A DNA stretch of 64,000 bases from positions 33,792,001 through 33,856,000 of the forward strand of contig OZ076409.1 in assembly GCA_964187785.1 (NCBI GenBank). Direction: 5' to 3'. Shown piece by piece: positions 8-58,545 of the stretch. Below the pieces are notes generated by a model. The model did not search any database. It saw nothing but the letters and a program-made list of their open reading frames with translations, and was not told where the DNA came from. The position numbers and the translations under genes were made by a program. The DNA comes from Amphiscolops sp. MND2022. Lineage: Eukaryota. Every line of letters begins with the position of its first letter. Within the stretch, counting starts at the first letter, position 1.

Positions 8-421
8 TTGGACTTACTCAAAGACCCGATGTATATTGAAGGTTATGCGTGTTGGCTGAATAACTTAGGAAATGGATTAGAAAAGTATAATATTCGTGTC
101 CATGGCACTACCAAAATGACACCTTTCGAAATGTCAACTAATCAAAAACTAATACCTACTTTGAAACCTAGCAGTAATAATAACAAACAACCAAACATCC
201 AGGTGGGAGATGTCGTAAAAGTTTTCGATAAACGTACACTATACAGTAGGGGTTACACATTTAATTGGAATGGAGAACTATTTAAAAAACACAGCATCAT
301 TATTACAAGTCCAGTGACCGTTGCTCTAGAAGATGAAAATGAAGAAATTATTCAAGGAAAATATTATGGTCAAGAACTTTTAGAAGTGTATTTGATTTTA
401 AATCTTATTCTAAAACACTAG
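8..421 (+). pseudogene. C-terminal part of Polinton-type retroviral-like integrase
   Basis: LEKYNIRVHGTTKMTPFE, IQVGDVVKV..K..YSRGYTFNWNGELFK and LEDENEEIIQGKYYGQEL match the typical Polinton integrase C-terminus. Confidence 0.8.
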
Positions 422-469: not shown

Positions 470-980
470 ATGGATTCTATGTTTTCTTTGAAAAATTAAT
501 ATGCTGTTGATAAACATTTTCAAAAAATTCATTCTATAAAATATAATCCAAATAGCTTATCGCCAATCAATAATAAAAATTCAAATATGCCGGTAACTTT
601 GCCAAGAGAAGACGCTTATGTTTGTTTACAAAACTCCTATATATCAATAGATTTTGAAGTAGTAAAAGATGCTGATAATACGAGATACGCCGATTTCGAT
701 GAAATAGCCCTATTTAATTTTGGATCTGTTGCCCTTTTTTAGCGAGGCTAAGCTGACAACTAGTTTAGGGAAACACTTGGAAAAATTGACAACCTGCATA
801 TTTTAATTATAATGCATAAAACGTTAACTTCTCGCAAACAGACAAGTGAACAGATGAGTGGGTTTGAAGAATTGATTGCTGTCAGTAGACAAGAACAAAC
901 AAACAATAAGACAGAGTAAGGAACCTTTTTTTGCTAAAATTAAACTGAGTGACGTGTTTGGAATTGCTGATCAAGAAAAA
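470..980 (+). pseudogene. Probable Polinton/adintovirus major capsid protein, 5' half (stops, frameshifts)
   Basis: Manual translation MDSMFSLKN*YAVDK..LPREDAYVCLQNSYISIDFEV..SEAKLTTSLGKHLE..KIKLSDVFGIADQEK; continues in frame at 7710 (ITYGLSYTLTLKR). Confidence 0.6.
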
Positions 981-1184
981 ACATAGGCGCGACGGCATGT
1001 CGCGCTTGGGCACGAGCAGAAACGTTCAATGGTCTGCAGAAGGTGCTAGAAAATGTGTATATCCCAGATTCCAAAACCTAGTGAACTTATCTAGTCTCAG
1101 ATCAAGAAAATTTAGATGAAAGAACTAAAAAGAAAGATGAGAAATTGAAGGTTGAGAAAATGAAAATTGTAATTTTAGCGAAAA

Positions 1185-2760
1185 AACGTAGGCGTCATAC
1201 TTGATGACGGAAACTTTGATAGTACAAGAACTAGCCTACATCTTTGCATATCTCTGTGAGGGAGAATGGTTTTCGTATCTACTTTCACTTCTGGGAAAAA
1301 TCAGTTACAATTTGGGAAAAAGTGGAAATTTTTCGAATTTTTCTTCATCCATTTATTTGCCCAATAATACCAGAGTGAAAAAAAGTCGACGTCAATTTAA
1401 CCTTTAAACATAGTCTACTGAACCCTCGTACAAATTACGAAACCATGGACTCCGTATTCGTTCTCGGTCCTGATATACAGAATACAGATATACAAGCTCA
1501 AGTAAAAAAGAACTGAGAAATTTTTTTCAAAAACAAGTATTTTTAGCAGAAAAACGAAAGCGTCATACTTGATGACGAAAACTTGGTTAGTACAAAAAAA
1601 GCCCACATCCTTGCTATTTGTCTTGAGGAAGAATGGTTTCTGTATCTTTCGTCAGTGTTGAGAAACATGAGCTACAGTTGAGAAAAAACTTTTCGAAAAT
1701 TTTTTCATCCCTTTTTTATGCCCAAAAAGCGCAGTCGGGAAAATTTTTGACGTCATTTTTTAGCGAAAATGTAGCCTACGAAACGCTTGTATATTATACG
1801 AAACCTTGGACCCTGTATCTGGTCTCGGTTTTGAGAAATAAGGGAAGAAAGATGAAACACTCTAAAAATTTGCGTTTTTTCAAAATTTCTTTTCAAAAAA
1901 AAACCAGGAATCCGAATTCTTTTTGAAAAATTTTTTCAACGAAAAGGTAGCCAAGGATTCTACCCAACTTTTGACTAGGACAAAGGTTTTTCGTATCTCT
2001 TTTCAGTTCTGAGGAAAATTAGTTACAAATTATGAAAAAATGGGAAATTTTTCGAATTTTTTTTTCATCCCTTTATTTGCCCAAAAAAACCGGAGCAAAA
2101 AAAATCGACGTCATTATTGGTTTTAAACGCAGCCGACTGAGCCCTAGTACAAATTACGAAACCATGGACTACGTATTTGTTCTCGGTCTTGAGATATAGG
2201 GGCTCAAGTATAAAATAAATAGGAAAATTTTTCAAAAAAAAACAAGTATTTTTAGCAGAAAAACGAACGCGTCATACGTGATGACGGAAACTATGTTGGT
2301 ACAAAACCTAGCTTACATCCTTGCTGTTTATCTTGAGGGAGAATGGTTTCTGTATCTTTCGTCAGTTTTGAGAAATATGAGCAACAAATGAGAAAAAAAT
2401 TTTCGACATTTTTTTCCATCAATTTTTTTGCCCAAAAAACGAAGTCTGAAAAAAAATTGACGCCAATTTTGAGCGAAAATGTAGCCTATGAAACGCTTGT
2501 AAATTACAAAAAAACATGGACCCTGTATTTGATCCTGGTTCTGAGAAATACGGCTTCAAACATAAAAAATAGTCAAAAATAGCGTTTTTTCAAAACTTCT
2601 TTTTGAAAAAAACCATGAAGCCGAATTTTTTTCGAATTTTTTTTTCGACGAAAATGTAGCCCAGGAACCTGCGCAACTTTTAGCGGAAACATGGTGTCCG
2701 TATCTGTTATGGGTTTTGAGAAATTTGCCGCACAAGTTTGAAAAGTTGGCACATGTCACG
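1185..2760. repeat. Internal ~355-bp degenerate tandem units of family A, with an extra ~710-bp duplication in A1
   Basis: gcgtcatacttgatgacg(g/a)aaact-like motif recurs at ~1192, 1560 and 2268, and at ~4867 and 5227 in A2. Confidence 0.7.
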
Positions 2761-2775
2761 AAATCTGCAAAAAAA

Positions 2776-4650
2776 ACATAGGCGCAAAGGAATTTGCGCA
2801 CGGCTTCGAGCGACAGGTCCCGCAGCCATAATTGACTATCATCATGTGCATTTGAACCATATTACCAAGTTATTAGCTATGACGAATAGCTAAGGTTATA
2901 TACGGCACGAGAATGCTCAAAATACAATGAAATTGAAAAGAATTGCGGGTATTAATCTTTTGAAGCCTAACTTTTTTGGCCTTTACCACTATATAAAAGG
3001 AAGGGCTGCCCTAGTTATCAATTGGACGGTTGATATGTGCCATCACTAGCAAGTATACTTTCAGTTCCAAAAAATAGCTGAATTGTGCATCAAACAACCT
3101 TCCAGCATCAGTGGGCACCGTTGGAAACGTATTCCAGAGGATGAATAACCTGTTAAAATTTGCGAATGGGGCAAAATCACGAAAAGATCCGAAATCATTT
3201 TTGTTTTCAATACAACGTAGTTGAATATCATTGCACAGCGAGGTGTGAATATAACTTAGTGTTGTCTTGATTTAATCGTTGCATATGACATCAAATCTCT
3301 CAGGAATATTGCGGTAATGCATAATACCTTCTGTGCAGATATTCACTGGATAGAATACGTTAAGAACGGAAATTTCGCGGTTTTACGCTTCAAACAACCA
3401 CATCATCAATAACTAACGGTGAGTATGTACTTCAGTGGTCCAATATTATCTCACTCTCGAAAACCCATACATCGAGAGGTCTGAAAAAAACTTTGGTTTC
3501 CGACATCAAAAATGGACAAAAAAACTATTCACCGAAAATTTTACAGGCATGAGACAAAGCAAATCAATGAGCAATTATGGAGTATATGATTCAAAGTACA
3601 TTACCGATAGGTCTTCGAGAATTTGTACATTTTCTACTAGCAGTATAAATAAATAAAAACCTTCCAAGGATGAAGTCAGCATTTTTAACAACAGCCGTGC
3701 AAATAAGACAGTAGGAGGGTTACTAGGGGTAATCAGACCGCAATCTATGCATTTTTACAAGACCGATCCGGTAACTTCGTCTATTTCACTCCTTCCTAAG
3801 ATTAGTTTGGAAAATCTATATTTAAAAATTGAAGGATCAAATATTCATTTATTTCAAGATTCGTAGTAAAGCACAATTTGTATAATATACAATGAACTGC
3901 CCGAAAATCCAACAACATTTAAATCTTCACCAACAAATTCAGTTCCAACAATTTGTTGAGTTTTTGGATGGTCTCGAAGTATTAGGCTCCGAGAAAATAG
4001 GCCAAAAATTTTACAAAATTGAATAAAGAGAGCAATTTATCAAAAATTCAAAAAATTTAAAAACTTTTTTGTCTCTATCTGTCCGACGTAAACGTTGTGA
4101 CTTTCCAATTTCTAACTTTGGGCAGCTAAGCAGACCTGTTATCGAGTAGAAACACCACTGCTTGGATTAGAACTGATTGCTACTTGAAAATAGGTTGAGA
4201 ATTTTTACGCAAAAAAACCGAAAATTTTTCCTATTTTTAATGGTCATTTTCGCAAAGCCCAATAATTCTAGGATAAAAAAACTTTCACCAAATTAAAGAA
4301 AACATCGTTTTACGTCGGTTAGTACCTACATCGGGCCAATTCGCTGTGGTTTGGGAAAAGAAAAATAGCAAAATCGACAAAAACCCTAAAAATTTTCGAA
4401 AATTTCGCGCTTTCGAAGCTAATAAAATCGCGCCGGTGGAAAATTTTCGGAAAGTTTTTACACGGTTAGAAAGAGCATCAAGTTGCGTTTCTTTTTGGAA
4501 AGTTTGGATGGTCGCGAAAAAATAGGCTCTGAGAAAATAGCCTTCAATTAATACAAATGCAGAGGGTATGTCACGCGAAAAAAAACCAAAACGCTAGTAA
4601 ACGCGGAACAATAGAGACTTCGTCGCTTCGCTTCGCTCGCTCGAAGCCTC
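2776..4650 (-). mobile_element. Non-autonomous Helentron-type element, family B, copy B1
   Basis: Sub-TIR ggcttcgagcg (2802-2812) / cgctcgaagcc (4638-4648). 3' hairpin gcgcaaa-ggaa-tttgcgc (2782-2799) plus CTATGT. Flanked by A runs. Confidence 0.75.
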
Positions 4651-4655
4651 AAAAA

Positions 4656-7600
4656 ACATAGGCGCGACGGCATGTCGCGCTTGGGCACGAGCAGAAACGT
4701 TCAATGGTCTGCAGATGTTGTTACAAATTCTTTGTGTTCCAGGGCCCACAACTTTGTGAACTTATCCAGTCTCAGATGAAGATATTTTGATGAAAGAACT
4801 AAAAAGATGAAGGAAATTTTTTTTTGAGAAAAATGAAAAAAATGTATTTTTGGCACAAACCCGAAGGCGTCATACTTCATGACGGAAACTTTGATAGTAC
4901 AAACAGTAGCCTACATACTTGCCTCACTTTGTGAGGGACAATGAATTTCGTATCTATTTTCAGTTCTGAGACATATCAGCTACAAATTGGAAAAAAATGG
5001 AAAAAATGCAGAAAAAAATTTTCAAAAATCCATTTGCTAAAAAATCCAGAGCGAAAAAAATTCGACTTCGCTTTTGTCCTAAAACGTAGCCTACATAGGC
5101 CTCGTAAAATTAACGAGACCATGAACGCCATATTTGGTCTCGGTCATGAGATATACGAGCTCAAGTAAAAAAGAACCAAGAATTTTTTTTCAAAAAAATT
5201 GAAGTTTTTTTGGCAGAAAAACGAAGGCGTCATACATATTGACGGTAACTTTGTTGGTCCACAAAAGAGCCTATATCTATGTTGTTCTTCTCGAAAGAAA
5301 ACGGGTTCTGTATCTTTTATCAGTTTTGAGAAATATGAGCTACGAATGAGAAAAAAATTTTCGAAAAATTTTTTGCATTCTTTTTTGCCCAAAAACACCA
5401 AGTATGTAAAAACATTTTGACGTCATTTTTAGGCCAAAATGTAGCCAATGAAACGCTTGTACAATTTTCGAAACCATGGACCCTGTATTTGGTCTCAGTT
5501 CTGAGCTATAGGGTATCAAAGATAAAAAATAGTAAAAAAAAACGTTTTCTCAAAAATTCTTTTGAAAAAAACCCATGAAGTCGAATTTTTTTCAAAAACT
5601 TTTTTCGGCGAAAATGTAGCCTAGGATCCTGCGCAAACTTTTAGCGAAAACATGGTGTCCGTATCTGTTGTGGGTTTTGAGAAATTTGCTTCATAAGTTT
5701 GAAAAATTGGCACATGTCACGAAATCTGCGAAAAAAAAACATAGGCGCAAATGAATTTGCGCACAGCTTCGAGCGACAGGTCCCGCAGCCATAATTGACT
5801 ATCATCATGTGCATTTGAACCATATTACCAAGTTATTAGCTATGACGAATAGCTAAGGTTATATACGGCACGAGAATGCTCAAAATATAATGAAATTGAA
5901 AAGAATTGCGGGTATTAATCCTATGAAGCTTAACTTTTCCGGCCTTTACCACTATATAAAAGGAAGGGCTGCCCTAGTTATCAATAGGACGGTTGATATG
6001 TGCCATCACTAGCAAGTATACTTTCAGTTCTAAAAATTAGCTGAAATGTGCATCAAACAACCTTCCAGCATCAGTGGGCACCGTTGGAAACGTATTCCAG
6101 AGGATGAATAACCTGTTAAAATTTGCGAATGGGGCAAAATCACGAAAAGATCCGAAATCATTTTTGTTTTCAATACAACGTAGTTGAATATCATTGCACA
6201 GCGAGGTGTGAATATAACTTAGTGTTGTCTTGATTTAATCGTTGCATATTACATCAAATCTCTCAGGAATATTGCGGTAATGCATAATACCTTCTGTGCA
6301 GATATTCACTGGATAGAGTACGTTAAGAACGGAAATTTCGCGGTTTTACGCTTCAAACAACCACATCATCAATAACTAACGGTGAGTATGTACTCCAGTG
6401 GTCCAATATGATCTCACTCTCGAAAACCCATACATCGAGAGGTCTGAAAAAAACTTTGGTTTCCGACATCAAAAATGGACAAAAAAACTATTCACCGAAA
6501 ATTTTACAGGCATGAGACAAAGCAAATCAATGAGCAATTATGGAGTATATGATTCAATGTACATTACCGATAGGTCTTCGAGCATTTTTACATTTTCTAC
6601 TAGCAGTATAAATAAATATTTTGAAGGATGAATACCTTCCAAGGATGAAGTCAGCATTTTTAACAACAGCCGTGCAAATAAGACAGTAGGAGGGTTACAA
6701 GGGGTAATCAGACCGCAATCTATGCATTTTTACAAGACCGATCCGGTAACTTCGTCTATTTCACTCCTTCCTAAGATTAGTTTGGAAAATGTATCTCTAA
6801 AAATTGAAGGATCAAATATTCATTTATTTCAAGATTCGTAGTAAAGCACAATTTGTATAATATACAATGAACTGCCCGAAAATCCAACAACATTTAAATC
6901 TTCACCAACAAATTCAGTTCCAACAATTTGTTGAGTTTTTGGATGGTCTCGAAGTATTAGGCTCTGAGAAAATAGGCCAAAAATTTTACAAAATTGAATA
7001 AAGAGAGCAATTTATCAAAAATTCAAAAAATTTGAAAACTTTTTTGTCTCTATCTGTCCGACGTAAACGTTGTGACTTTCCAATTTCTAACTTTGGGCAG
7101 CTAAGCAGACCTGTTATCGAGTAGAAACACCACTGCTTGGATTATAACTGATTGCTACTTGAAAATAGGTTGAGAAATTTTTTACGCAAAAAAACCGAAA
7201 ATTTTTCCTATTTTTAATGGTCATTTTCGCAAAGCCCAATAATTCTAGGATAAAAAACTTTCACCAAATTAAAGAAAACATCGTTTTACGTCGGTTAGTA
7301 CCTACATCGGGCCAATTCGCTGTGGTTTGCGAAAAAAAAATAGCAAAATCGACAAAAACCCTAAAAATTTTCGAAAATTTCGCGCTTTCGAAGCTAAAAA
7401 AATCGCGCCGGTGGAAAATTTTCGGAAAGTTTTTACACGGTTAGAAAGAGCATCAAGTTGCGTTTCTTTTTGGAAAGTTTGATTGGTCGCGGAAAAGTAG
7501 GCTCTGAGAAAATAGCCTTCAATTATTACAAAGGCAGAGGGTATGTCACGCGAAAAAAAAACCAAAACGCTAGTAAACGCGGAACAATAGAGACTTCGTC

Positions 7601-7667
7601 GCTTCGCTTCGCTCGCTCGAAGCCTCAAAAACGTCACCATATGGGCATCTCGCAAAGCTCGTGCCCC
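4656..7667 (-). mobile_element. Helentron-type family A, inner copy A2 (contains B2)
   Basis: First ~60 bp identical to the A1 3' end, then diverged. Its own 41-bp 5' end is at 7627-7667, identical to 7668-7708. Confidence 0.7.
5739..7626 (-). mobile_element. Helentron-type family B, copy B2
   Basis: Near-identical to 2776-4650 along its whole length, with the same termini. Confidence 0.75.
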
Positions 7668-7708
7668 AAAAACGTCACCATATGGGCATCTCGCAAAGCT
7701 CGTGCCCC

Positions 7709-8437
7709 AATTACTTATGGTTTAAGTTATACTCTTACATTAAAACGTAACAATAACAACGATGTTATCTTCCGTTGTGCTGGTGTAGATGCTGCAGAAA
7801 AAGTTATAAAAAATATTGGTTGTCTTTTCCACACTTTACACGTAGATTAGAAAACCAACAAATTGCGATGGATCAGTTACTGAACAAAGATACAACAGAA
7901 TTCTTTTTTATAGGAAGAATTGTTTTTAAAAAAGATGTAAACACTAATAATACTTCGACCTTTGACTTCGGTAATAGTGGTGAGTGTACTCCTACGTTTG
8001 TAATAGTTGGATTTCAAGCTAGAGCCAAAATCGATTCGCGAACACACGACAATGCTATATTCGATTAACTTCCTAATTCTAATGCTGTTTTAGAAATAGG
8101 ATCGGAAAACTACCCTGTTGATGGAATTGACTGCGACTACGATAGAGACAAATACCGTGAAGCATATCAAGAAATGGAAAATTTCTCTCAATTGCATACT
8201 GAATCTAACATAATGCCACCACTTATTGATATGATACTGACAAATTCAGGCCAAATGACAGTTTTTATGTAATTGACTTATCCAAAAAAATATCATATTG
8301 CGATTCAGCCTATTAGATTAGAATTTAAATTTAGTGCTAACATAAATGTAGCAGATTATACAGCTTATGCTCTGGTCCTAACACCCAAGCTGATTAGTAT
8401 CAGGAGTGATGGACAAAGACATTTTGATTTGATATAA
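7709..8437 (+). pseudogene. Probable Polinton/adintovirus major capsid protein, 3' half
   Basis: ITYGLSYTLTLKRNNNND..PTFVIVGFQAR..DNAIFD*LP..IGSENYP..QPIRLEFKF..YTAYALVLTPKLISIRSDGQRHFDLI*, with frameshifts and stops. Confidence 0.6.
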
Positions 8438-8659
8438 ACAATATATTATATCTAAAATGAAATAATAATAATATATTATTTATATCTAAAATTATGAAAG
8501 AAGTGCTCGATCACGTATCAGTTTTTTGAGCTGTTGATGGGTTAGATTTTCTTTTAGATACCACGTATATAATTGAATTTCTTCATCTGTTTTATTTCAA
8601 ATTGTTTCTTTACGATACAAAAGTACAAACTTCAAACAATATAGACATGGACAATCGCT

Positions 8660-9233
8660 TTGTTGTGTGTGTTTATCCATTGGTAAACATTTTATTGGTT
8701 ATATATACATACGCTTATCGTCAAAGAAGATTCAAAGGTAATTTGTTTTGGTATTGTAACTGTTAATTGATGTAAGTTTGATTGAATTGAAGAATTTGTT
8801 GCATTTGTTGTTTCGGACATAAGCAATGAATTCTTTTAATCTTTACAATTGGGGGCTTTTTGTATTCCTTTTTTTCTTTCCTTTATTTTTCATTATGAGA
8901 GAAGGTTATTGATTTTGATCGTGAAGCTATCTAGTACTAATACCGGACTTGTTTCAATTTTGATTTTTCCTACACCTTTTTTGTTAATAGGATCATATGA
9001 TTGATGATTTGTATCTAATTCACTAAAATTAATGTAAATGCACTTTTTAATACCATTACGTTTCTAAACATTTCTAATAAAGTTCATACATTAACCGTTC
9101 ACTTATTTCTAACACAGAGAGCCCCAAAGAAATTGGTTTATCAAAGACTGTTTTCTCTTTATCAAAATTGTACACACTAAAATGTTCATACCAGTTGACG
9201 ATACCTTTGAAACCTTACTTGGATTGTTATTTT
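8660..9233 (-). pseudogene. Protein-primed DNA polymerase B, degenerate C-terminal fragment
   Basis: Minus-strand translation gives FDKPISLGLSVLEISERLMYELY, FSELDTNH..NKKGVGKIKIET, KKKGIQKA and FDDKRMY. Cut at ~9234 by a Helentron-type repeat. Confidence 0.8.
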
Positions 9234-9970
9234 AGTCGGCGCATCTCAGTAGAAAATGTGCCCGACTCCTACAGTGGGTAGTTTTTTTAGACACGAAAGG
9301 TCCACTTTTTTGTTCATTTGTTCAGTTTGACCAAAACTTACCGCAAACCTTAGAACCCCATCCAAAACTATAAAACCAACGTCTAGAACCTTGAAAACAA
9401 CTAAGGATCCCCACTTTGGCTATCTGGGTGTTTTTAACTTGGATTTGTTTTGGCACTATAGAACGTTTTTTCGAAAATTTTTTGATTGTACCAAAGGGTC
9501 CCCCCTTCTTTTTTTTGATTTTTTGCAACAAAATAGATGTTTGAAAATCCCAAAGGGTCCCCCTTTCAGATACTTCGGCACTATCCTGCCGAATTTGAGA
9601 CTGTTCAAAATTGTCATTTTTCATCTGACATTAAGTTTTCTCAATACATATCCACCAATATTTTTTTCAATACTATCCGAAGTAATACTATTTGAACGTA
9701 ATATCCGGAGTAAGGCGCTATATCCGAATTTTTGACGTTATTTCCGAAGTATACTCCGTTTCACTGAGGAGGAGGCGGAGGTTCGAAAACAAGTGCATTT
9801 GTCCCAGCCGCTATATCCGAACTTCTGATGCGTTTTCCCAGCACGGAAGGCTTCCTTTGGGTGAAACTTCCTTGTGAGTTTTTCATTTAAAAAAGTCATG
9901 AGCATATTTTGAAAATTTTGCACTTTTTGAGCCTTAGATATAGCGCCGACTTTGGCCGTTCTCGGCTTGT
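9234..9970 (+). mobile_element. Helentron-associated (DINE-1/HINE-like) element, family C
   Basis: Tn-agtcggcgc 5' end; 3' gcgccgact sub-TIR, hairpin ggccg-ttct-cggct and TGTT; internal aaagggtccccc motifs. Confidence 0.7.
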
Positions 9971-10030
9971 TATTATTTGTTGTATGTGAGAATGATCAAT
10001 GAATTGTAGATTTGTTCCATTTCTTACATT

Positions 10031-14169: not shown

Positions 14170-15727
14170 GATTGCAGAATTACCCATTTATTGGGCGGAC
14201 GCTTCCAAATCACCACAACTCGAGTAGAAGAAATGAATTGACCTTTTCGAGGTCGCGTTAATGGCGAAAAGCAACATATCAATCAAAGAATTGCCGAAAA
14301 CTACTGGAACAAAAGAAAAAAGCCTGATGGGTGACATGGAAGTTACAACCGCTACGAAAAAAGCAATCAGCGTATTGTACCTCGCACTTGGAATGGCAGC
14401 CCGAAAAACGATTGCAAACAAATTCCCCGCCACAAACATTGCCAGCATAACTTTAACTGATTTGCTGAAGAATTGTAAAGAAGGTTTTGAAAAGCCGAAA
14501 AACGAAACGCTTGGTAGATTCAAGCTTTTGAGTCGTAAAGAACAAGAAAGACAACCGCTACGTGAGTCTTGGAACGATTTGAACGGATTAGCCGCCAAAT
14601 GTAACTTTGGAGGAATTACGGAATGTCTCGTGAAAGATGAATATGTGAATATGGTAAACAAAGACGTCCAACAAAAAATATGTACGGAACCAAAGCAACA
14701 GTCCAAGAAAACATTGAGTTTGCGATTGAATATGAGGAGGGTACCATGAGACATTAGACTTTTGATAAACTGGAAAAGCTAAACGTAAAGACGGAGGCAA
14801 ACGAAATAAATGAAATCATCCAAAGTGGAGCAAAATGTTGGGGCCCCATTAGTAACGAATGCTTAAGATGCGAGACATATTTACACCCACAACATCTAAA
14901 AGAGTGTAAGGCGATGGGGATAACTTGCATGAAATTTGGAAAGAAGGGCCAATTCGCAAAATGCTGCCAGACCAAAGGAGCGGGGAATTTTGCAAAGAGT
15001 CAAAAAACCATGAGACAACCCGCAAATACAGAGAATTGACGAATGGGATGAGAGCAGGAACGATCCGATAACAGAAGATAATAGAATAATATTAACGATT
15101 GAAGGAAACGAGAATGGGCAGTTCACGATGTCAGGCAACGTAAACGGAAACACATTCAAATCAAAGGTTTATTCTGGCTCACCCGACACGATCTTTGAAA
15201 TAGAAGAAATCCAAAGGATAATGAAAAAACCCTCTTCATCCCCGAATTGCCAAAAGACGAAGAATACGTCGACTTCAACAGATGAAAATTAAATTTACTG
15301 GGATATGTGTTTTGTCAACTGGAAGTGGGAAAGAGCAAGCTGCAAAAAGTCAGAATACTGATTGCAGAAAAAGGCGCCAAACCATTGATCGGAAGGGGTT
15401 GGCTGAATGTGTTCAACTATCAATTTGTCTCGCCTAATCAAAAAGCAGGTAGCAACGCTACCTATAAAGTAACTACAAAAAACTCACTACAAATGAAAGT
15501 CAATAAACTAATTGAAGCTGGTAAACAAACTGAAGTAACTAATCACAATAACAAGAATGAACAAATAAAATTAAAGAACCAGTTTGAAGAATTATTTGAG
15601 CGTCAAAGAAAACTAATTGGACATAATGTAAAAGTTGAATTCAAACGAAACGAGATGGTAACACAACAGAAAGGTAAAAAGAGTACCTATACAACTATAA
15701 GAAGCTGTAGAAGAAGAAATCAATAGA
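14170..15727 (+). mobile_element. Degenerate Gypsy gag-protease fragment related to 19590-24667
   Basis: LYLALGMAARKTIANKFP, SRKEQ..ESWNDLNGLAAKCNF, zinc-knuckle remnants and ILIAEKGAKPLIGRGWL, with frameshifts. Ends at a family C element. Confidence 0.85.
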
Positions 15728-15728
15728 A

Positions 15729-16217
15729 ACAAGACGGGAACGTCTCAAATCGGCGCTATATCTAAGGCTCAAAAAGCGCGAAACATTTTTTTTTGGAAAA
15801 AAACTTGAAATTTTCGAAAAAAATAATTTCTTTCGGAAAATGTCGCACAGTGCCGAAAAATGTAAAAGGGGGGTTTTATGATAACCCTTTTTGATTTATA
15901 AACACGCATTCTGTAGCAAAATAACAAAAAACTCAAAGGGGGGACCCTTTGGGGACATTAAAAAAATGTCGAAAAAAAGTCTCACAGTGCCGAAAAAAAA
16001 TCGAAAGGGGGGGGGGACTTTAGTCCCGTCCGGGCTTGTAGGTAACGTTTAAAAAGTAAATGAATGCGCTCCCCGTTTGCCTTTAGCGGTCCAGTAGTTT
16101 AGTACTGTATTTAGTAGTTGAACGTTGATTTTAACATTCGTCGCTTCGAGTCTGTCTTAAATAAAAAAAACGAGTGACTGTAATAGTCGGGCTCTTTTCT
16201 TAAGAAAAGCGCCGACT
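15729..16217 (-). mobile_element. Helentron-associated element, family C
   Basis: Reverse complement of family C termini (acaagacgggaacgtct ... gcgccgactaaaa). Confidence 0.7.
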
Positions 16218-17317
16218 AAAAAAAGGCAAAGACTTAGCAAAGCGTAACTACTAGTCGTCCAAACGTGGGATTGGAAATGGAACATCTCCTCAACCTTGAA
16301 CTCTTTTACACAAATGGTCTTCAATTTTTTGATGTTTTTGATGGGAATATGAATCCACTGAGTTCTGAAGTGGAAACTTTGATTCAAAATCAAATCTTAC
16401 AGAGAGCAAAGAGTGTCAACTTTTTCATATCTTGGATGTTTATCACTGTTTTAAAATAAATCAGGATGAAATGATTCCTCTTTTTCAAAATCCTTCCAAA
16501 AAATTTAGTCCAGTCGTTCCTGCGCAGACTAATTTTACAACAGTCGTTGACGCGGTCATGCTTCCTCGAGGCTTTTTAAAAAAGCGCAAGATTCTTACAG
16601 TGGCAAACTTTTTTCAGTCACCATAGAACGTCCACTTTTATAAATTTTGTGAATTACACACAACAGCGCCAATTGTTATAACTATAGTAACTACTTAGCT
16701 AACTTGTTTTGCTCGACGGTTTACGTGGATTTCCAGGTCTGGTGACGAGGATTGAGGACACGGAGTACGTGGGTTCGAGCAACGCACTAAACCAATTTTG
16801 ATGATTTGGGTTTTTTGGCACATTTTTTTTCTGATTTTCATTACTGAAGCCTCCAATTTGTTGCAGACACAAAGCGTTTTGCGAGCATAGAAGATCACAT
16901 ACCAATTTCGGCATTATGAGACCTCTTGAAAAATCATTGAGAACTCTTTTTGTCGTCCTTTAGGCTCTTGATTATGCATTTTGGGTTTTTTTTTAAAAAA
17001 ATGTCAGCTTTCACTTTTTAGGAAAATGCTGAAGAATATATTGTCTCGTCTAGTGGTGAGATTTATCATACACACGTGAAAGATCACAAAAGGTAAGAAA
17101 AATCACTTGTTTGAAGTTGTAGAAAAACAGGCTTTTATGGTCTTTTTGGGGTCCTTCTGAGAATTTTAAATACTCTCTGAACCAGTACTGAGTAGTTGTT
17201 TTGTTGGTCGCTCACTTCGCAGGATATTTCAACTACGCAAATCCTTGAAGCTTCTACAAAAATTGACTTGCAATTGTCGAAAATGTAAAATTTCGGGGTT
17301 GTTTTTTTGAGATTTTT

Positions 17318-17500: not shown

Positions 17501-18382
17501 TTCCAAAAGTACAAGTGAGACCAAAGGTGAAACTGTCCAGAATTTTGAAAAATTCAGTTTGAATAATTATCCATAATTCTTGGGGATTTTGAATGTTTTG
17601 ATACTTGTATTTTCAAATAGTCTCACAAATTGTCGATGATATTAAGGTCCATGGACATAGCTGGCCACTCTGGGAGTAGAGCAATTCCCTATTCTTCAAA
17701 AAAGGATCTCCTTAGATGTAAGGTTCGGACACATTACTGAGAGGCGTCCAAGAATACTTTTTCGATTTTTCGGTAGTTATCGGTGCTCTGCTTGGCACTC
17801 TTTTGCGTTCAATCGTGCCGTCTTTTCAGTACACAACAATAATACGATGCACAGGAAATTTTGAGACTAAATGGTCTTTCGAAATTTTCGATTAAGAAAA
17901 GTTTTGAAGGAATTTTTGAATGCCCTGTTTTCTCGTTTCATCACTGGTTTTCCTCGGACCCATAACTTCAATGCTTTCAGAATAAGTGAATTCAAAGACT
18001 GAGTGTTTGAAATGCAATGAACATGGCTAATGAAATAATTGTCAACGTTTTTTGGCGGGTGTTTGATTAGCGCGCAAATCGAGCGTTCACTTTTTACATG
18101 TACAAACTACATGTTTGTTCGGTTGCTTCAAACAAGAGTGTAACTGTCAAAACGGCTGCTGAACCAAAGTCCGAAATGATTCGAAATTTGAAAAAAAACA
18201 GAAGCTTCATTCCGTTTTGGTGAAAAAACGGTACGTTTCTTTTCTAAAAAGACAGTATGTGTTAACTTTGCAATTTCTGTAGTTTTTAGCTCCCAAACAC
18301 TTTCATTAAACTGAATAGTGAATATCACAGAAGTGTCGAAATTTGGTATTTTTGTGTTTTCGGATGACTCCTTTGCCTTTTT

Positions 18383-18714
18383 AGTCTGCGCTTATATTAA
18401 TGAAAGAGCCCAACTGTTATAGTCACTTGTTTTCTTTTCTTTTTTTTAAGACAGACTCGAAGCGACGAACGTTAACGTTCAACTAAAGGAAACTAAATGC
18501 CAGGGAAACGCAAGTTATTCCAAAGGGTCTTCCTTTGGTTTTTTACTTTTTAAACGTAACCTAAAAAACCGGACGCGACTAAAGGGTCGCCCTTTCGATT
18601 TTTTTTTCGGCACTGTGCGACTTTTCTCCGAAATTGTTTTTGTCGTCGAAGGGTCCCCCTTCGATTTTATTTGAGCCTTAGATATAGCGCCGACTTGAGA
18701 CGTTCCCGTCTTGT
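18383..18714 (+). mobile_element. Helentron-associated element, family C (short)
   Basis: ttagtctgcgc 5' end; gcgccgacttgagacgttcccgtcttgtt 3' end. Confidence 0.7.
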
Positions 18715-19776
18715 TATATCTTTTCAGTGCCTTTTTCAAATCCAAAAATCGAAAGTGCTTGTCGTAAAAGACTATTTGCTTTTTTAAAAGTTGTCGGTGT
18801 TTGCATATCTCGATACAGTCGAAGTTACTTAAAAAATGGCCCAAAGTCGTAAAAAAAGTCTTCCTAATTTTTTGGGACAATTTTGAGACTTTTTGATATT
18901 GGGTCGTGGGGGACGGCGTTGGATATGTAAGTCTTTCGAAACGTCTGAAATCTATTAGAACGAGTTTTTTAATGCAAAAAAGTGCTTAATTGTAGGAATT
19001 CGGATTTTACCGTTAAATTCCAGCAATTGTGATCATTTTCAACCACATTTTTCAACTAAGATTTCCGTATTGCTCTCCAAAACTCATGGTGGCAAGCTGG
19101 TTCTTTCTCGGGGAACTGTTTAAATTTTTCACGAAAAAGTTTGGAAACTGTACCAACAACGTCTAGTAGTCTCCAATTGTGCAATATTTTTTGGAAACTG
19201 TTTCGCACGAAGCTCTGTTTATGTCAATTAAAATTTTTGGATTTGACATTGAAATATGGCTACTTTCTGGAGGAAAAGGGATCTAAATGCCCGAAGTAAC
19301 TTAGCTACGACATGCTTTTAAAGCTCAATCATGAGAACTTCTAAACTTTTCTTGCTCGAGAAACATTGAAAGAGTTTTTATCCCAATAAAGTATGTTCAG
19401 TTCGAAAACTTGTTAACGATCTCCATGAAAGGTCATGCTACCCAAACATGTAAAGTTTATCAAAAAAGAGCCTGAACCGTTGGAAATGGATATTTGTCAG
19501 TTTTTGATTGAGCATTTCAAGTATTTTGGAATTTATTGTCAACTTTTTCATTTTGCGGAACTGATAAGGAGTCAGTCAACTACTGTAACTGTGGTAGATC
19601 TGTAAATTAACATGAGATAAAATAGTAACATCATTATGCAATATTTACAGAAGTACCTGCCAACGCAGGAGCATGCGAAAAAGATTAATAGTTCATTCAC
19701 GCCACAACTTGTGATACTGTCAATTCACTAGATTTGCCATCATACATTGTTTTGCCAAGTTGAAGATATCGTTAAC

Positions 19777-20997
19777 ATGGCGCTGCGAGTCAATGATACT
19801 GACGACGCACCTTCCTCTCCTTTTCCGAGTGTGTCATATTTCTGGCAGGAAGCCAAAAAGAAACCTACAACAGAATGGGCCAATTGGGCACAATTGTTCA
19901 AAATGGCGGTTATAGCCAGACATTCAATTTCAATCTCGGAGGTATTAATGAACCCAACCAAGCAAGATTCATCAATTCCTGCGTTACTTGGAAACCTTAC
20001 GGTTCCTACTGCTGCAAAGAAAGTGGTTAGTTTATTTTATCTGTCAATTGGAAAAACTGGCAGAAAAATGCTAACTGACAAATTTCCCCATACAAACCTT
20101 TTCGTAATCGACCTCGCCGTAATACTGGAAAGATGTGCAGAATCCTCCGAAGTAAAAAGAAATCGTACCTTGGATAGACACGCGTTCTTCTCAAGAAAAC
20201 AGCAATCAGCAGAATCACTTCATCAGTTCTGCAATAATTTGAATGGCCTTGCTGCAAAATGCGACTTTAGGGAGCAAACGCAGAGCTTGGTGTACGACAT
20301 GTCTGTGCTGATTATGTCTAAGAAGCAGGCCCAAGAAAGGCTTTGTACTGAGCCAAAAGAAGACCCAACGGCGGCGCTCCAATTTGCCATTGCATTTGAA
20401 AAAGGAATTAGAAGACAGAAAATGATAGGTCAACCGTGTACGTCCACAAAAGTTAAAGAAGAACCGGTATTCATGGTTGCTGGGCACAAGGACAAAAAGG
20501 AGTGCTGGAGATGTGGAGCAGGAGAATTCACGGCGGCGCACCTGAAAGTCTGTAAAGCACCTGAAACAAATTGCAACTACTGTGGTATCAAAGGACACTT
20601 CGAGAAATGCTGCAATTCCAAACAGAAGGACAGGTTGAAAAATATTTCCATGCCAAAGAATTTTGACAGAAAATTCCAAAATGCAAAAAGAGTCCAGAGA
20701 GTGGACTATTTCGAAGAAGATCAAGATTCAGATAGTGACGAAATGGTGCTAAATGTTGAATCGGAAGGCACCTACAACTCTGAGCCCTACTATATGGAAG
20801 GGTGGATAAATGGCTTTCGGTTTAAAACAATGATAGACACTGGCTCACCTGTTACTATCTTTGCGATTGATGAAATTAAAAGAATTATGCACAGAGCAGA
20901 TCTTCAAGTAAGGCCAATGGTTGAAGAAGAGAAGTATGTAGACTTCAACGGAAAACCATTAAACCTCCTGGGCTACGTGTCAGCTACAAGTCGGTGA
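19777..20997 (+). pseudogene. gag: Gypsy gag plus aspartic protease
   Basis: Two zinc knuckles (CWRC..H..C, CNYC..GH..C) and protease IDTGS; frameshift at the 3' end. Confidence 0.9.
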
Positions 20998-21004
20998 GAA
21001 ATTC

Positions 21005-24000
21005 ATGAAGAAAGCAAGAATTCTAGTGGCAAAGGAAAAAATGAAGTCTATAGTGGGCAGAGAGTGGTTGTCGACTTTGAAGTTCTACAGGATACAAAAT
21101 TCAGTGGGTGAGTCGGTCATTAATGTAATTGAAAAGGAGGGAGAAAAACTAAGTCAGGAAACAAAGGCTTTGGTAAATGAATTTCCGAATCTATTTTCAA
21201 GAAATGGAAAAATTAAAGACCACAAAATAAAAATATAAATGAAAGAAAATGCTTCTATCTCTCAACAAAAAGGGAGAAGAATAACAATCCAAATGCAAAA
21301 AGCAGTGGATTCGGAAATTAAACGATTGTTGAAAGAAGGCCATATTGAAAGGGTAGACGAAATTAAGGACGACGTTATCGATCAGCCAACGGTCATAACG
21401 GTAAAGAAAGACCAATCAGTAAAAATAGCATTAGACGACAGAGCATTGAATAAAGCCATTGACAAAAATAAATACCAAATGCCCGATCTGGGAAATTTAA
21501 TAGAGATGATTGCGGAAAGACTAGATATTTCAAATAGGGATGTTTGGTACTCGTCAGTAGATTTAACGTACGCATATGGTCAACTTCCACTACATGCACA
21601 AACGGCAGAACATTGCAATTTTCAAGTTATTGGCGATGAATCAACGGGCCTATATCCATTTGTAACAAGTTTTATTGGTCTGACGGCTATGCCGACAGAA
21701 TTTCAAAAGGTTATGAATAACCTCTTAGTTAGATTTAGAGAAGTGTTTGTTTTTATTGATGATATATTAATTGTAACAAAGGAAACAAAGAACGACTATC
21801 AATTTTAAAGGAATTAAAGTCGTATCTGGGTGACGTTAACCAACTAAACAAATTTATTCCGGATTTGGCAACGGAATGCTTTCCGTTCAGAAATAACTTA
21901 AAGAAAGATGTGGAATGCAAGTGGTCGTCAGACCATGAGAGAGCACTTGAACGAAATAATAATTTAGTGAAAAAAAAGTAGAATTGACTCATTTTAAAAG
22001 AAACTGTACATTGCGAATCACCTGTGATGCAAGTAAACAACGATTAGGAGCGGTATTACAGCAAAATGAAGAAAATAGTTGGAGACCAATTGCGTACGCA
22101 TCCAAATTTTTAACCGATTTTGAACCGAAATACTCAATCGATGAATTAGAACTTCTAGCGTTAGTTTGGTCTGTCGAACATTTCAAGAATTATGTGTACG
22201 GAAGCGAATTTGAAATAGTATCCGACCACAAAGCGTTAAAAAGTGTATTGAAAGCCAACAAATTTAACAAAACATTTCCTAGCCGAATAACGAGATGGGT
22301 AGATAGATTACTCCCATTTGATTTTACTGTTGTACATACAACCGGTAGAACGCTAGGAATGGCGGATTACTTATCACGTCACCCATCCCCCTACAGTGGC
22401 GCGGTAATCAAATCTGAACAAATGTTCAATGATTGGTTTACAATCAACGTTGTAAATGAATTTGCAAATGACTTGGAGGAAGCCATTATGGCAAAAGGCA
22501 AGAAAACGACAACTTTCTGTAGTGAACCAAATAGCCAATCAGAAGCGAGAACGAAAGTATTTACAGTATCAAAGCGAAACGGCAGTGCGTTTCTAACTGC
22601 CAAAACAAACGAGAGTGGTAAAACAAACAATTACACTCAAAACAAACTAATGGCTGCTAATTCTAGAATCAGCAAAGTTTACGTCCAGGCCAATTTTGAA
22701 AAGGACAAACAATTACAAAATTTATACGATTAATTCAAAATCGGGATTCTTCCCAATTTGCTCGTCTTCCGTCCCCCTGGAGGGAAAAAATTAATTCGCT
22801 GAGCTTAGATTCCAACAAACTTCTTTACTTAGACGAAAGGCTAGTGATCCCGAAAGACATGAGGGAGAATATGCTTACTGCAATCCATTTTGACCATGCG
22901 GGCAGAAATGCCACGTTAAGAGAGGCAGCAGTCGTGTGGTGGCCTAAAATCTACCGAGAAATAGTGTCAAAAGCCAATATTTGCCTAGAATGCATGAAAG
23001 CAGGTAAGAACCTATAGTGTCTTAAAAGCCAAAAAGAGTTCGGAACGACACCTAAGGCGGAAAAGCCAAACGAGGAAATTGAATTAAACATCGCAGGTCC
23101 CTTTCAAAACGCGCCAAAAGAAAAGGAATACATGTTAGTTTCAGTAGACAATAACTCAGGATGGCCTGAGGCGCTACTTTTAACAAACCCTACTACAGAG
23201 CGAGTTTTAGAATTTTTAGCGGAATATATAGCACAACACGGAATCCCACAACGTATACGAACCGACCCGGGCACAGCGTTTAAAAGCGAAAAAATTATTC
23301 AATTTTGTAGAGACAACTTCATAAAGCATATAGTTTGCCCAATGAAGGACCATTGGGGAAATGGCAAGGTTGAAAGGATGATTGGAACTTTTAATGAAAG
23401 ACTTCGAGTAGATAACAGGGTGGTGCTAGAAAGAAAAAACAAAAAACTTGTCAAGAACCCGTTTCGCGCTAAAAACAGAGATTGGAAAAAGGGGAAGTCG
23501 GCATTTGAGCGCCATAAGAAACAAAAATCGAATACCCCAAAAACTGCAACGGTAAACGATTTCATTTCAGAAAGAGACCCAAAGCTCCAAATCAACGAAG
23601 AAGACTTTAGCCCTGATGTGGACTCAACAGTGTTGATCCGAGAAAGAACTCGTGGGTCAAAACTAGACGGAACATTCACAAAACGAAAAGCCAAAATAGT
23701 AGCCGAATCAAAGCACACCATTACTATTTTGCCAAACAAAGGGAAGATGGTCACGCTATACAAAAGGGATGTGGCGCTTAAAAGACTAAAAGCAGAAAAA
23801 GAGCCCGTCCGGGAAAGAAACTCGAGCGAAGAAGAATTGCCACATTGCAGCAAAAAGCCAGTCGAACCCAAACCAGTCAGAAAGAAAATAACTGCTCGTG
23901 TAGCCTCAACGTCCACGGAAGAAGAAATAAACAAAAGTGGGGGAGAAGCCATCCACGAGAAAGAAGAAAAGATCCAAGAGCCAATATCAGACCAAACTCT

Positions 24001-24310
24001 GGAAACAGAAGAAACAACAGGAAACCCAGAACAAACTATCGAAGGTACAGAAGCCGAAGAAGGCGATGTGACTGAAACAACACCATCTGAATATGAAACG
24101 ATTGGATATGGTCAATCGGAAGAAGAAGGAGAGGTGAATGAAAAGTGGCCAATCCGAGGAGAAGCAAGTTTCGAAACCTCAAAGAAGAAAACGCGATCGG
24201 GTCGGCTGATCAAAAGACCAGAATGGCTGGGACAAAACGTAATGATCAGTGCCGTAGACAAAGAAAAGCCTGAAGAAGAAGCTAAAACCGAAAAGACAAC
24301 CACCCTGTGA
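21005..24310 (+). pseudogene. pol: Gypsy pol (RT, RNase H, integrase), broken by stops, frameshifts and an RT deletion
   Basis: VDLTYAYGQL, FIDDIL, CDASK, ELELLALVW, SDHKAL, H..H..C..C, RTDPG and GKVERMI. About 60 codons after the YxDD-type motif are missing relative to the element at 48-52 kb. Confidence 0.9.
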
Positions 24311-25092
24311 AAAACTCAATAAAACTATTGTTCCATTACTTAACATTAGCTAATTGGTGAGCTAATTAGTATTTTAGTTTGTGTTGTTAATTTCACTAAA
24401 CCTTGATGTAAATTGAGTGACAGTGACATTGCATAAACCCACACAAGTTGATCCCTAGTTATTTAATAAAAAAGGGAAATGTGGTAGATCTGTAAATTAA
24501 GATGAGATAAAATAGTAACATCATTATGCAATATTTACAGAAGTACCTGCCAACGTAGGAGCGTGAGAAAATGATTAATAGTTCATTCATGCCACAACGT
24601 GTGACACTGTCAATTCACTAGATTTGCCATCATACATTGTTTTGCCAAGTTGAAGATATCGTTAACAGTAACGTTGTATGCTGTGATTATTCATACACGC
24701 TTAAATTTTCGAAAACCGTGCGGATGTTGATTCACACGATTGAAACTGAAAAAAAACTGGGATTCGTGGGCATTTTGGTGCCTTTTTTGAACAAAATTGT
24801 TAGATTTCTCTTCTGAAAATGTACGAGAGAGTTGTTCTTTCCTCGTTCGTTTCGCTTGATGGTGTATTTTTTTGAAAAGCCTAAGACTTGTCGTGAATAG
24901 CTGCTTAATGGGGAAAGAGGTTCTGGAATTTTTTGCGTTCTGGGGTCTTTAGAAAAACATTTGTCCAGAGAGCAAGCTAGATAGATAGTTATTTCATTTC
25001 TGAACCCTGTATGTAATAATACCCATCAAAGCTTGCAGAAGTAAGAAAATTAGTGTATTGAAGTGTCGAATAAAGCCAGAAAAAGCATTTTT

Positions 25093-25698
25093 AGTCGGCG
25101 CTTCATGAAGTGAACGCGACTATCATAGTGACTCTTTTTAAAAAATTTTTTCAATCCACACAAACTGACCAAAGTAGTTCTTAAAAGTTCTACAAAATTT
25201 TATGGTCCCAAATTGAATTATTTGGCCTAGCGAACTGAACCACAAAGGTTTTTCTTCTTTTTCCGCGTAACATACAATGCCGAGAGAGACTAAAGGGTCC
25301 CCTCTTTGAGTTTTTTTCGGCATTGTGAGACTTTTTTATCCAATTTTTTTTCTGCCAAAGGGTACCCCTTCAATATTTTTGATGTTTTGCGACAGCATAG
25401 ATCTTGAGAAAACGCAAAGGGTCCCCCCTTTCAGATTTATTTGGCATGAGAGAAAAACGTGATAATTTTTCCGAAACTTTTTTAACCCAAAGGGTCCCCC
25501 CTTCAATTTTTTTGATAATTGACAACAATGGATGTTAAAAAATTGCTTTTCCCCGGCGTGCCAATTCGGCCCAACGTTCGTACTGTAAAAGAATACTTGA
25601 CACTTTCAGGTACTGCAAAGGAATACTTGACACTTTGACGTCCTTTTGCTATTTTTGAGCGTTAGATATGGCGCCGACTTATGCTGATCCTGGTTTGT
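25093..25698 (+). mobile_element. Helentron-associated element, family C
   Basis: ttttagtcggcgc ... ggcgccgactt termini and aaagggtccccc motifs. Confidence 0.7.
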
Positions 25699-32972: not shown

Positions 32973-33490
32973 ACAAGACGAGAACATCTAAAGTCGGCGC
33001 TATATCTAAGGCCCAAGAAGCGCAAAACATTTTTTGGAGAAAAACTTGGAATTTTTGAAACTTTTTTCTTTCGAAAAATGTCGCATAGTGCCGAAAAATG
33101 TAAAAGGGGGATCCTTCCCTTTCGGATTCATTATCTTACATTCTGTATCAAATATCTTCTGTTAACATATATTCTGTTAACATACATTCATCGAAATATC
33201 AAAAAACTCGAAGGGGGGACCTTTTGGGGACATTTAAAAATTTTCAAAAAACGTCGCACAGTGCCGAAAAAAATCCAAAGGGGGACACTTTAGGCACGTC
33301 CGGTTTTGTAAATTTTCTTGAAAAAATAAAAAATGGAAGGGTGGACCCTTTGGACTAAGTTTGCCTTAGCCGGACTTGGCCTTGGGTGATTTCAGGAATG
33401 TTTCTAAAAAGTGTGCGGATTGTAGTCTGAAGAAAAAAAAGGTCACTGCTATAGACGGGCATTTTTCCTTAAAATGAAAACGCGCTGACT
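32973..33490 (-). mobile_element. Helentron-associated element, family C
   Basis: acaagacgagaacatctaaagtcggcgc ... gcgctgactaaaaa termini. Confidence 0.7.

Positions 33491-57689: not shown

Positions 57690-58545
<856 letters not shown>

What the first reader, a model, noticed from the sequence alone, without database searches (positions are those of the whole stretch)
981..7708. Russian-doll nest of rolling-circle elements at one T-run next to a family-A 5' hairpin
Seen (minus-strand order): A-5' end (41 bp), an identical A-5' end (41 bp), B2, A2 body, B1, A1 body. B1 and B2 are near-identical, while A1 and A2 share identical termini but have clearly diverged bodies, so this is not a simple block duplication. 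Inference: A2 and B1 inserted in the TTTTT ~37 nt inside A1, and B2 inserted in the homologous TTTTT of A2. That is three insertions at one site, and it also explains the 41-bp doublet. This suggests targeting of the element's own 5' hairpin rather than random TT choice.
Basis: partly seen in the sequence, partly recalled or inferred. Interest (0 to 1): 0.72.

Follow-up and report, generated by a model that had tools for sequence, protein, structure and literature searches.

The report
Rolling-circle transposons nested at one site
Four small non-coding jumping elements of a known rolling-circle type are stacked inside one another at the same short run of T just behind the start of one family, a real and unusually clean example of a self-insertion habit already reported for this class, though one site cannot show what attracts them.

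Summary
The nest is real. On the minus strand: a, a, B2, A2 body, B1, A1 body, every joint a T-run. Both families have Helitron2/Helentron (HINE) ends and no coding capacity found. B1/B2 differ by 1.9%. The A bodies differ by about 20% and by four 180-nt monomers, yet keep identical termini (36 and 59 nt), so A1 and A2 are young copies of two subfamilies, not a local duplicate. Both outer flanks match consecutive residues of one decayed capsid-like gene, so the 6.7 kb entered a single site. Every history I could build needs two or three insertions at end-adjacent T tracts, while 39 other T/A runs of 7 or more inside the bodies stayed empty. What guides the choice is open: the 5' hairpin is weak, the founder used a hairpin-free site, and a plain liking for long T tracts is not excluded. 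New lead, found after the fact: the 36-nt 5' piece resembles A's own right end (9 of 10 bases, same distance to the T-run). No other copies could be obtained (no genome held, no runs listed). Self-insertion and doubled 5' ends are published for Helitron2 and maize Helitrons. New member of a known kind.

The parts
7673..7708 (-). a1: first 36 nt of family A (5' subTIR 7707-7698, weak 5' hairpin with a 5-bp GC-rich stem); outermost 5' end, preceded by two T's (7710-7709)
7668..7672 (-). T5 joint a1|a2
7632..7667 (-). a2: second, identical 36-nt 5' end of family A (subTIR 7666-7657)
7627..7631 (-). T5 joint a2|B2
5740..7626 (-). B2: complete 1887-nt family-B element; 5' subTIR 7623-7613 inside a 5' hairpin, own unused T9 at 7561-7553, 3' subTIR 5776-5766, 3' hairpin 5762-5745
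5731..5739 (-). T9 joint B2|A2 body
4657..5730 (-). A2 body, 1074 nt, five ~175-180-nt diverged monomers; 3' subTIR 4692-4683, 3' hairpin 4680-4662
4651..4656 (-). T6 joint A2|B1 (a right end joined to a left end)
2777..4650 (-). B1: complete 1874-nt family-B element, 98.1% like B2; subTIRs 4647-4637 and 2813-2803, 3' hairpin 2799-2782, own unused T8 at 4585-4578
2769..2776 (-). T8 joint B1|A1 body
982..2768 (-). A1 body, 1787 nt, nine monomers (a four-monomer block of about 710 nt present twice, 72-83% alike, plus a fifth type); 3' subTIR 1017-1008, 3' hairpin 1005-987
976..981 (-). T6 joint A1|host
506..980 (+). host site, left part: decayed double-jelly-roll capsid-like gene (homologue residues 1-157 of P0002, in two frames)
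7710..8434 (+). host site, right part of the same decayed gene (homologue residues 158-398 of P0002, in two frames, with stops)

Best explanation
A and B are two non-autonomous Helitron2/Helentron (HINE-type) families moved by a RepHel rolling-circle transposase encoded elsewhere. A founder A1 (alone or already carrying B1) entered a T-run in a decayed capsid-like gene. Further copies, an A of a second subfamily and B twice, were joined at the T tract that starts 37 nt inside A, leaving the doubled 41-nt 5' end. Shown: the map, the ends, the single host site, two distinct A subfamilies, B at the homologous tract in both. Inferred: the choice of that tract is guided by the element's own terminal signals and not by T content alone. 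The most economical form is that the transposase cuts at a T-run lying behind a sequence that looks like an element end and joins the incoming 5' end there, as it does when it closes a circle: all three inner 5' ends follow either a true right end (A2|B1) or the 36-nt a piece (a|a, a|B2), which resembles the right end in length, in a 10-nt motif and in spacing to the T-run. The order of events and whether they happened here or in donor copies elsewhere cannot be read from one locus.
For: Ends match the Helitron2/HINE description (against passages). Flanks hit consecutive homologue residues, e.g. 157 and 158 of P0002 at window 980 and 7710. A bodies 77-87% alike per homologous monomer and 9 vs 5 monomers but 36 + 59 terminal nt identical; chance 6e-9 if they had drifted 18% apart in place, 0.16 at B's 1.9%. 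3 of 3 nested joints use end-adjacent tracts; 39 other T/A runs of 7 or more in the four bodies are empty; 1e-5 (three hits) or 6e-4 (two hits) under equal use of runs of 5 or more. Both a joints have exactly T5. Only 18 of 759 T-runs of 5 or more in the window have a GC-rich stem just upstream, 6 of them the nest's joints (four of the six are the elements' own 3' hairpins, so not independent). a vs last 36 nt of A: 9 of 10 in register, shuffle P 6e-4, or 3.6e-3 with the hairpin arms fixed; 1 unrelated T-run of 759 scores as high. Circles with head-to-tail joints and a loop-dependent terminator are shown for the Helitron1 Helraiser (PMC4778049, passages).
Against: One locus, picked because it is striking, so the probabilities are post hoc. 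No other A or B copy was found to test enrichment. The 5' hairpin of A is weak (z -0.47). The founder's host site has no hairpin and no likeness to the right end (5 of 10). B's own post-hairpin T8-9 is unused in 2 of 2. The mimic was noticed after the fact, is not significant over the whole 36 nt (13 of 36, P 0.13), partly rests on bases forced by the 5' hairpin, and does not resemble B's right end (5 of 10) although B is two of the three incoming elements. T5 also fits the published TTTT^T rule (PMC3627910) with no need for end recognition. Helraiser showed no local hopping and a random distribution in cells (PMC4778049), though it is a Helitron1.
Confidence: 0.5

Rival explanations
1. Long-T sink: the elements simply follow the Helitron2 rule of inserting after TTTT and favour long T tracts. 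A's 5' tract was one of the longest available and each insertion leaves T's on both sides and brings a new tract, so the site renews itself without any recognition of the hairpin.
For: HINEs prefer T-rich targets with variable T numbers (PMC4067079 section 6); Chlamydomonas Helitron2 elements insert between TTTT and T/C (PMC3627910), which gives T5 at both a joints. Junction T's sum to 14 and 19. With weighting by T8 windows and a tract of 12-15 the three-hit chance is 0.06-0.12. Insertion preference that preserves its target makes tandem dimers in Drosophila TEs (PMC5932611).
Against: The founder used a short run (8 T's in all at its two joints). No A/T run in the 64 kb exceeds 9, so a 12-15 tract is doubtful; at a tract of 9 the three-hit chance is 0.008 or less under all weightings tried. 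Runs of 8-9 inside the bodies, including B's own, are empty.
Confidence: 0.25
2. Composite and chimeric units: fewer targeted events, then copying. One B insertion behind a made an a-B-A composite; B passed to the other A subfamily by template switch or conversion, or a-B and B-A read-through units were mobilised, or a B-A2 circle recombined into a resident B. The doubled 5' end then travels as a unit, as in Fusarium.
For: FoHeli copies with the first 31-85 nt doubled transpose as units, explained by self-insertion and termination at the first 3' end (PMC5148889, passages); maize multi-terminus Helitrons from nests (PMC3288121); read-through is shown for Helraiser. A1/A2 identity is highest next to B: first monomer 87% against 72-80% for the rest.
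Against: The first 130 nt of the A bodies differ at about 7%, more than B's 1.9% (Fisher P 0.0016), and differ already at the base next to the T-run, so no co-copied tract is visible. B1/B2 differences are evenly spread, longest identical stretch 204 nt, P 0.53. These routes still need at least two insertions at end-adjacent tracts.
Confidence: 0.2
3. Local tandem duplication or assembly artefact (two haplotypes or repeat copies stitched together).
For: B1 and B2 are only 1.9% apart, a level that alleles could show. No reads could be laid on the locus. The absence of A/T runs over 9 nt (about 12 expected) hints that homopolymer lengths may be unreliable.
Against: A duplicate or a second haplotype would not carry A bodies 20% apart and 710 nt different in length with identical termini. 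The map is a a B A B A, not a B A a B A. Every joint falls exactly at an element end. The host gene continues across the nest with no loss or repeat.
Confidence: 0.05

Closest known systems
HINE / DINE-1, non-autonomous Helentrons (Thomas et al. 2014, PMC4067079; passages and section 6 read)
   Same: subTIRs, short inverted repeat overlapping the 5' subTIR, 3' stem-loop, T's on both sides in variable number, no target duplication, no coding capacity found, internal tandem repeats
   Different: A's perfect subTIR is 10 nt (12-15 in the mite HINEs, 13 in DINE-1); the passages read do not report nesting at a fixed tract; no autonomous partner identified here
Helitron2 / HLE2 (Bao & Jurka 2013, PMC3627910; HELIANO 2024, PMC11417382; passages read)
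   Same: 8-15-nt asymmetric TIRs, 5' TIR 0-2 nt from the end and part of a 5' hairpin, 3' TIR just upstream of the 3' hairpin, T^T insertion; HelenXT233 of Xenopus has two left ends in direct repeat
   Different: the outer joint has only two T's on the left, not TTTT; HelenXT233's two left ends differ and mark subfamilies, here they are identical and both bodies are still present; RepHel phylogeny untestable
Self-inserted and multi-5'-end FoHeli elements of Fusarium, and the triple Helitron of Metarhizium acridum (Chellapan et al. 2016, PMC5148889; passages read, supplements not seen)
   Same: [quoted passage not shown]
   Different: here two families and two A subfamilies share one tract, all ends are accounted for (2 a + 2 A right ends, 2 + 2 B ends) and the host site is fixed by a gene; Fusarium cases have several 5' ends with one 3' end
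Maize Helitrons with multiple termini from nests (Dong et al. 2011, PMC3288121; passages read)
   Same: Helitrons insert near or into one another and give multi-terminus elements
   Different: Helitron1 ends (TC...CTAG, A^T target), mainly multiple 3' ends
Cg_HINE of oyster and Heli2Xen of Xenopus (PMC7492417, PMC12001565; passages read)
   Same: central arrays of 140-180-nt (166-nt) monomers inside Helentron ends, as in the A bodies
   Different: no sequence comparison made; A's monomers are highly diverged (53-87%) and form a four-monomer higher-order unit

Membership tests
Helitron2/HLE2 non-autonomous (HINE) | asymmetric terminal inverted repeats of 8-15 nt, 5' copy 0-2 nt from the end | tested here: met
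   A 10 nt perfect, 1 nt from the first non-T base; B 11-12 nt perfect, 2-3 nt in. A falls short of the 11-nt threshold used by Thomas 2014 and HELIANO
Helitron2/HLE2 non-autonomous (HINE) | 3' TIR immediately upstream of a 3' stem-loop near the end | tested here: met
   7-bp perfect stems 2-3 nt after the 3' TIR and 5 nt before the T-run in 4 of 4 right ends; z -1.3 to -2.9
Helitron2/HLE2 non-autonomous (HINE) | 5' hairpin involving the 5' TIR | tested here: inconclusive
   present in the predicted folds of A and B at the expected place, but no more stable than shuffles (z -0.47 and 0.02)
Helitron2/HLE2 non-autonomous (HINE) | insertion between T and T, no target-site duplication, variable T's | tested here: met
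   7 of 7 joints are T-runs of 2-9; host gene residues consecutive across the nest; no true empty allele seen
Helitron2/HLE2 non-autonomous (HINE) | no transposase coding capacity | tested here: met
   no Pfam family at E 0.01 in the six ORFs of 80 aa or more overlapping the nest (five inside or starting inside plus 7458-7850) nor in six shorter frames of B1 (best E 0.021, below cut-off); decayed fragments could be missed
Helitron2/HLE2 non-autonomous (HINE) | autonomous RepHel partner with the same ends, falling in the HLE2 clade | not testable with these tools
   no genome held; none of 75 of 75 window ORFs of 80 aa or more hit a Helitron Rep or helicase family
Helitron2/HLE2 non-autonomous (HINE) | dispersed multi-copy family with sharp boundaries | not testable with these tools
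   only the two copies of each family in the nest were found; outside searches empty or chance
Helitron1 | 5'-TC, CTRR-3', A^T target, no TIRs | tested here: not met
   ends are T/G-rich 5' with TIRs and CTATG-T run at 3'
Target-specific (self-targeting) transposon | genome-wide enrichment of insertions at one sequence over matched background | not testable with these tools
   one locus only; within-locus estimate ranges from 6e-7 to 0.12 by the weighting assumed

The most novel reading that the evidence does not exclude
The first 36 nt of family A are a built-in mimic of a right end that works as a landing pad: the Helentron transposase cuts the T-run behind it as if closing a circle and joins incoming 5' ends there, across families. 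Helentrons would then have a sequence-guided, self-renewing integration route that builds nests and doubled 5' ends, testable with oligos and genome tables.
Probability: 0.17. Interest if true: 0.62.

Novelty: new member of a known kind. Interest (0 to 1): 0.3.

Why it matters
No Helitron2/Helentron transposase mechanism was found tested in the papers I read; target choice is known only as 'TT or poly-T'. If end-like sequences attract insertions, that would explain multi-5'-end elements, head-to-tail piles and the seeding of satellite arrays, and would give a safe-harbour strategy for these elements. This locus is a tidy case (balanced ends, fixed host site, two families), but it adds one example to a pattern already described in fungi and maize and noted several times in this scan; it does not settle the cause.

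Tried and rejected
Own genome: none held. Sequencing runs: none was listed for 700-9000, so no reads were laid; this is no evidence of absence. Exact A 5' end in viral contigs 0; exact B 5' end in metagenome contigs 0; shared right-end pattern in viral contigs 0, metagenomes 11 loci and genomes 6 loci: all 17 of 17 rejected as chance, none has the hairpin, TIR or body, only L008 and L013 give a 41-nt blastn match confined to the pattern. Capsid homologue against viral contigs: none confirmed. Rfam over 900-7800: 0. Scan notes by place and by sequence: nothing. Rejected: old local duplication (termini would have decayed); head-to-tail concatemer of a-B-A (wrong order of a pieces); co-conversion tract from B into A; gene conversion between B1 and B2; coding remnant in B (six frames, no family). 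Literature searches listed no paper that measures enrichment of Helentron insertions at a relative's 5' T tract; I read passages of 10 papers only, subscription papers (for example the maize distribution and centromeric Helitron studies, recalled) are not in the library, and no supplements were opened; the Fusarium table of multiple termini may bear on novelty.
Full report
Observation. On the minus strand: host, T2, a (7708-7673), T5, a (7667-7632), T5, B2 (7626-5740), T9, A2 body (5730-4657), T6, B1 (4650-2777), T8, A1 body (2768-982), T6, host. The two a pieces are identical over 36 nt (period 41). The A and B subterminal repeats each occur four times exactly in 64 kb, all in the nest, above all 100 shuffles. 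A blind scan of the window for hairpin + T-run + paired repeat gave four right ends, all here. Profile and blastn searches found no further A or B copy in the window.

What the elements are. Each family has a short inverted repeat at the very 5' end (A 10 nt, B 11-12 nt), its partner just before a perfect 7-bp stem-loop, then CTATG and a T-run. This is the Helitron2 description of Bao & Jurka (PMC3627910, passages) and the HINE/DINE-1 description of Thomas et al. (PMC4067079, passages and section 6). The 5' hairpins are in the expected place but weak (z -0.47 and 0.02). The A bodies are arrays of 173-188-nt monomers, five in A2 and nine in A1, where a four-monomer block is present twice, like the central repeats of oyster HINEs and Xenopus Heli2Xen (PMC7492417, PMC12001565, passages). 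No Pfam family was found in the nest's ORFs and no Rfam family. None of 75 of 75 window ORFs of 80 aa or more hit a Helitron domain, so the transposase must be elsewhere; that the elements move by rolling circle is inferred from their ends.

The host site. The flanks belong to one decayed gene of the double-jelly-roll capsid kind (29 homologues, 28 with PF21738). tblastn places homologue residues up to 157 against window 980 and from 158 against 7710 (P0002 and most full-length homologues; P0021 and a few others overlap by one residue or start later). So the 6.7 kb sits in one site with no visible loss or repeat of host sequence. The gene has further frameshifts and stops. That it comes from a Polinton/Maverick-like element is my recollection, not a call result.

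Not a duplication. B1 and B2 differ at 35 of 1874 columns, evenly spread. Homologous A monomers are 87, 80, 77, 72 and 80% alike, about as far apart as the two halves of A1's own duplicated block. Yet 36 nt at the 5' end and 59 nt at the 3' end are identical. Had A1 and A2 drifted apart in place, the chance of that is 6e-9; at B's level of divergence it is 0.16. A1 and A2 are therefore recent copies of two long-separated subfamilies whose ends were kept by selection for mobility, and all four insertions can be of similar, recent age. An assembly join of two haplotypes fits poorly for the same reason, but no reads could be checked.

How many targeted events. Composites a-B-A could have formed elsewhere and one entered the other; a-B and B-A units could arise by early termination and read-through, as proposed for Fusarium (PMC5148889); a B-A2 circle could have recombined into a resident B. 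Each needs B at the same tract in two subfamilies, or one such event plus a switch within about 23 nt, and then one more insertion at an end-adjacent tract. A long co-copied stretch is not seen: the first 130 nt of the bodies differ at about 7%, more than B (P 0.0016), and already at the base beside the T-run. So two, more likely three, insertions used end-adjacent tracts, while 39 other T/A runs of 7 or more in the four bodies stayed empty. With equal use of runs of 5 or more the chance is 1e-5 for three hits and 6e-4 for two; per TT step it is lower; with a steep liking for long tracts and a tract of 12-15 it rises to 0.06-0.12. These figures are conditional on landing inside an A element and are post hoc for a locus chosen for being odd.

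What guides the choice. For end recognition: both a joints have exactly T5; only 18 of 759 T-runs of 5 or more have a GC-rich stem just upstream, two of them the a tracts; and a alignment anchored on the T-runs shows that a and the last 36 nt of A are equally long and share 9 of 10 bases 12 nt before the T-run (shuffle P 6e-4, 3.6e-3 with hairpin arms fixed; one unrelated T-run of 759 scores as high). In A's right end that motif covers the hairpin loop, and loop sequence matters for termination in Helraiser (PMC4778049). All three inner 5' ends thus follow a true or mimic right end, the same joint that circles have. Against: the match was noticed after the fact, is not significant over all 36 nt (P 0.13) and does not extend to B's right end (5 of 10); the founder's site has neither hairpin nor motif; B's own T8-9 behind its hairpin is unused in both copies; T5 is also what the published TTTT^T rule gives; junction T's sum to 14 and 19, so the tract may simply have been long, although no A/T run in the window exceeds 9. 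An older HINE-like family in the same window has three 5' ends at unrelated flanks, so nesting at the 5' end is not universal here.

Comparison with what is known. Doubled 5' ends of 31-85 nt, self-insertion as their cause, and a case read as two insertions into one 5' end are published for fungal Helitron2 (PMC5148889); two left ends in direct repeat for a Xenopus HLE2 (PMC11417382); nests giving multi-terminus elements and a tendency to insert near each other for maize Helitrons (PMC3288121); repeated insertion at a preserved target as a general source of tandem elements in Drosophila (PMC5932611). PMC4224331 (passages) gave only composite transposition. Seven literature searches listed no measurement of enrichment at a relative's 5' tract; the library lacks most subscription papers and I opened no supplements. 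Unchecked notes of this scan describe at least five similar piles in other genomes; they are leads, not support, but they lower the surprise.

Verdict. Real, well resolved, and of a known kind. Nest and element class: about 0.9. More than random TT choice: about 0.7. Guidance by the element's own end signals as the cause: 0.5, against long-T preference 0.25, composite copying with few targeted events 0.2, artefact 0.05. Interest 0.3; the right-end-mimic landing pad (probability 0.17) would deserve about 0.6.

Noticed in passing
window 1-64000: No A or T run is longer than 9 nt (19 runs of 9; about 12 of 10 or more expected from the decay of shorter runs), although one G10 exists. Either a sequencing/assembly ceiling or a real limit; it makes junction T counts uncertain.
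   Followed up: partly
window ~9430-9975 (-), 15727-16250 (+), 18360-18700 (-), 25230-25560, 32970-33380 (+), 41590-41890: A third, older dispersed family (70-80% alike) with a HINE-like 5' hairpin and internal repeats of a purine/pyrimidine palindrome; three 5' ends examined sit at unrelated flanks, not nested.
   Followed up: partly
window 8-421 (+): 137-aa frame just upstream of the capsid-like gene; looks to me like the end of a Polinton-type integrase (recalled); no Pfam hit.
   Followed up: no
window 19747-24310 (+), 25761-26450 (+), 49930-52320 (-): Retrotransposon remains: reverse transcriptase, RNase H and integrase domains; 19587-19777 and 24477-24667 are 95% alike and may be the LTRs.
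   Followed up: no
window 35786-36154 (+): Exon-sized match to prolyl 4-hydroxylase alpha N-terminal region (PF08336, E 1.6e-12), pointing to an animal-like host gene in the window.
   Followed up: no
window 57690-58547: 858-nt (GA)n microsatellite, 435 copies.
   Followed up: no
window ~3080-3870 (+), inside B1 (and 6040-6840 in B2): A less T-rich core of B with a chain of 48-81-codon frames on the strand opposite to the element; possibly a captured decayed coding piece; no Pfam family.
   Followed up: partly
window 7561-7545 and 5739-5715 (-): A and B both carry a T-run followed closely by the same 8-nt motif near their 5' ends, and B's early body weakly matches the A monomer profile (E about 0.1-0.4): the families may share an ancestor.
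   Followed up: partly
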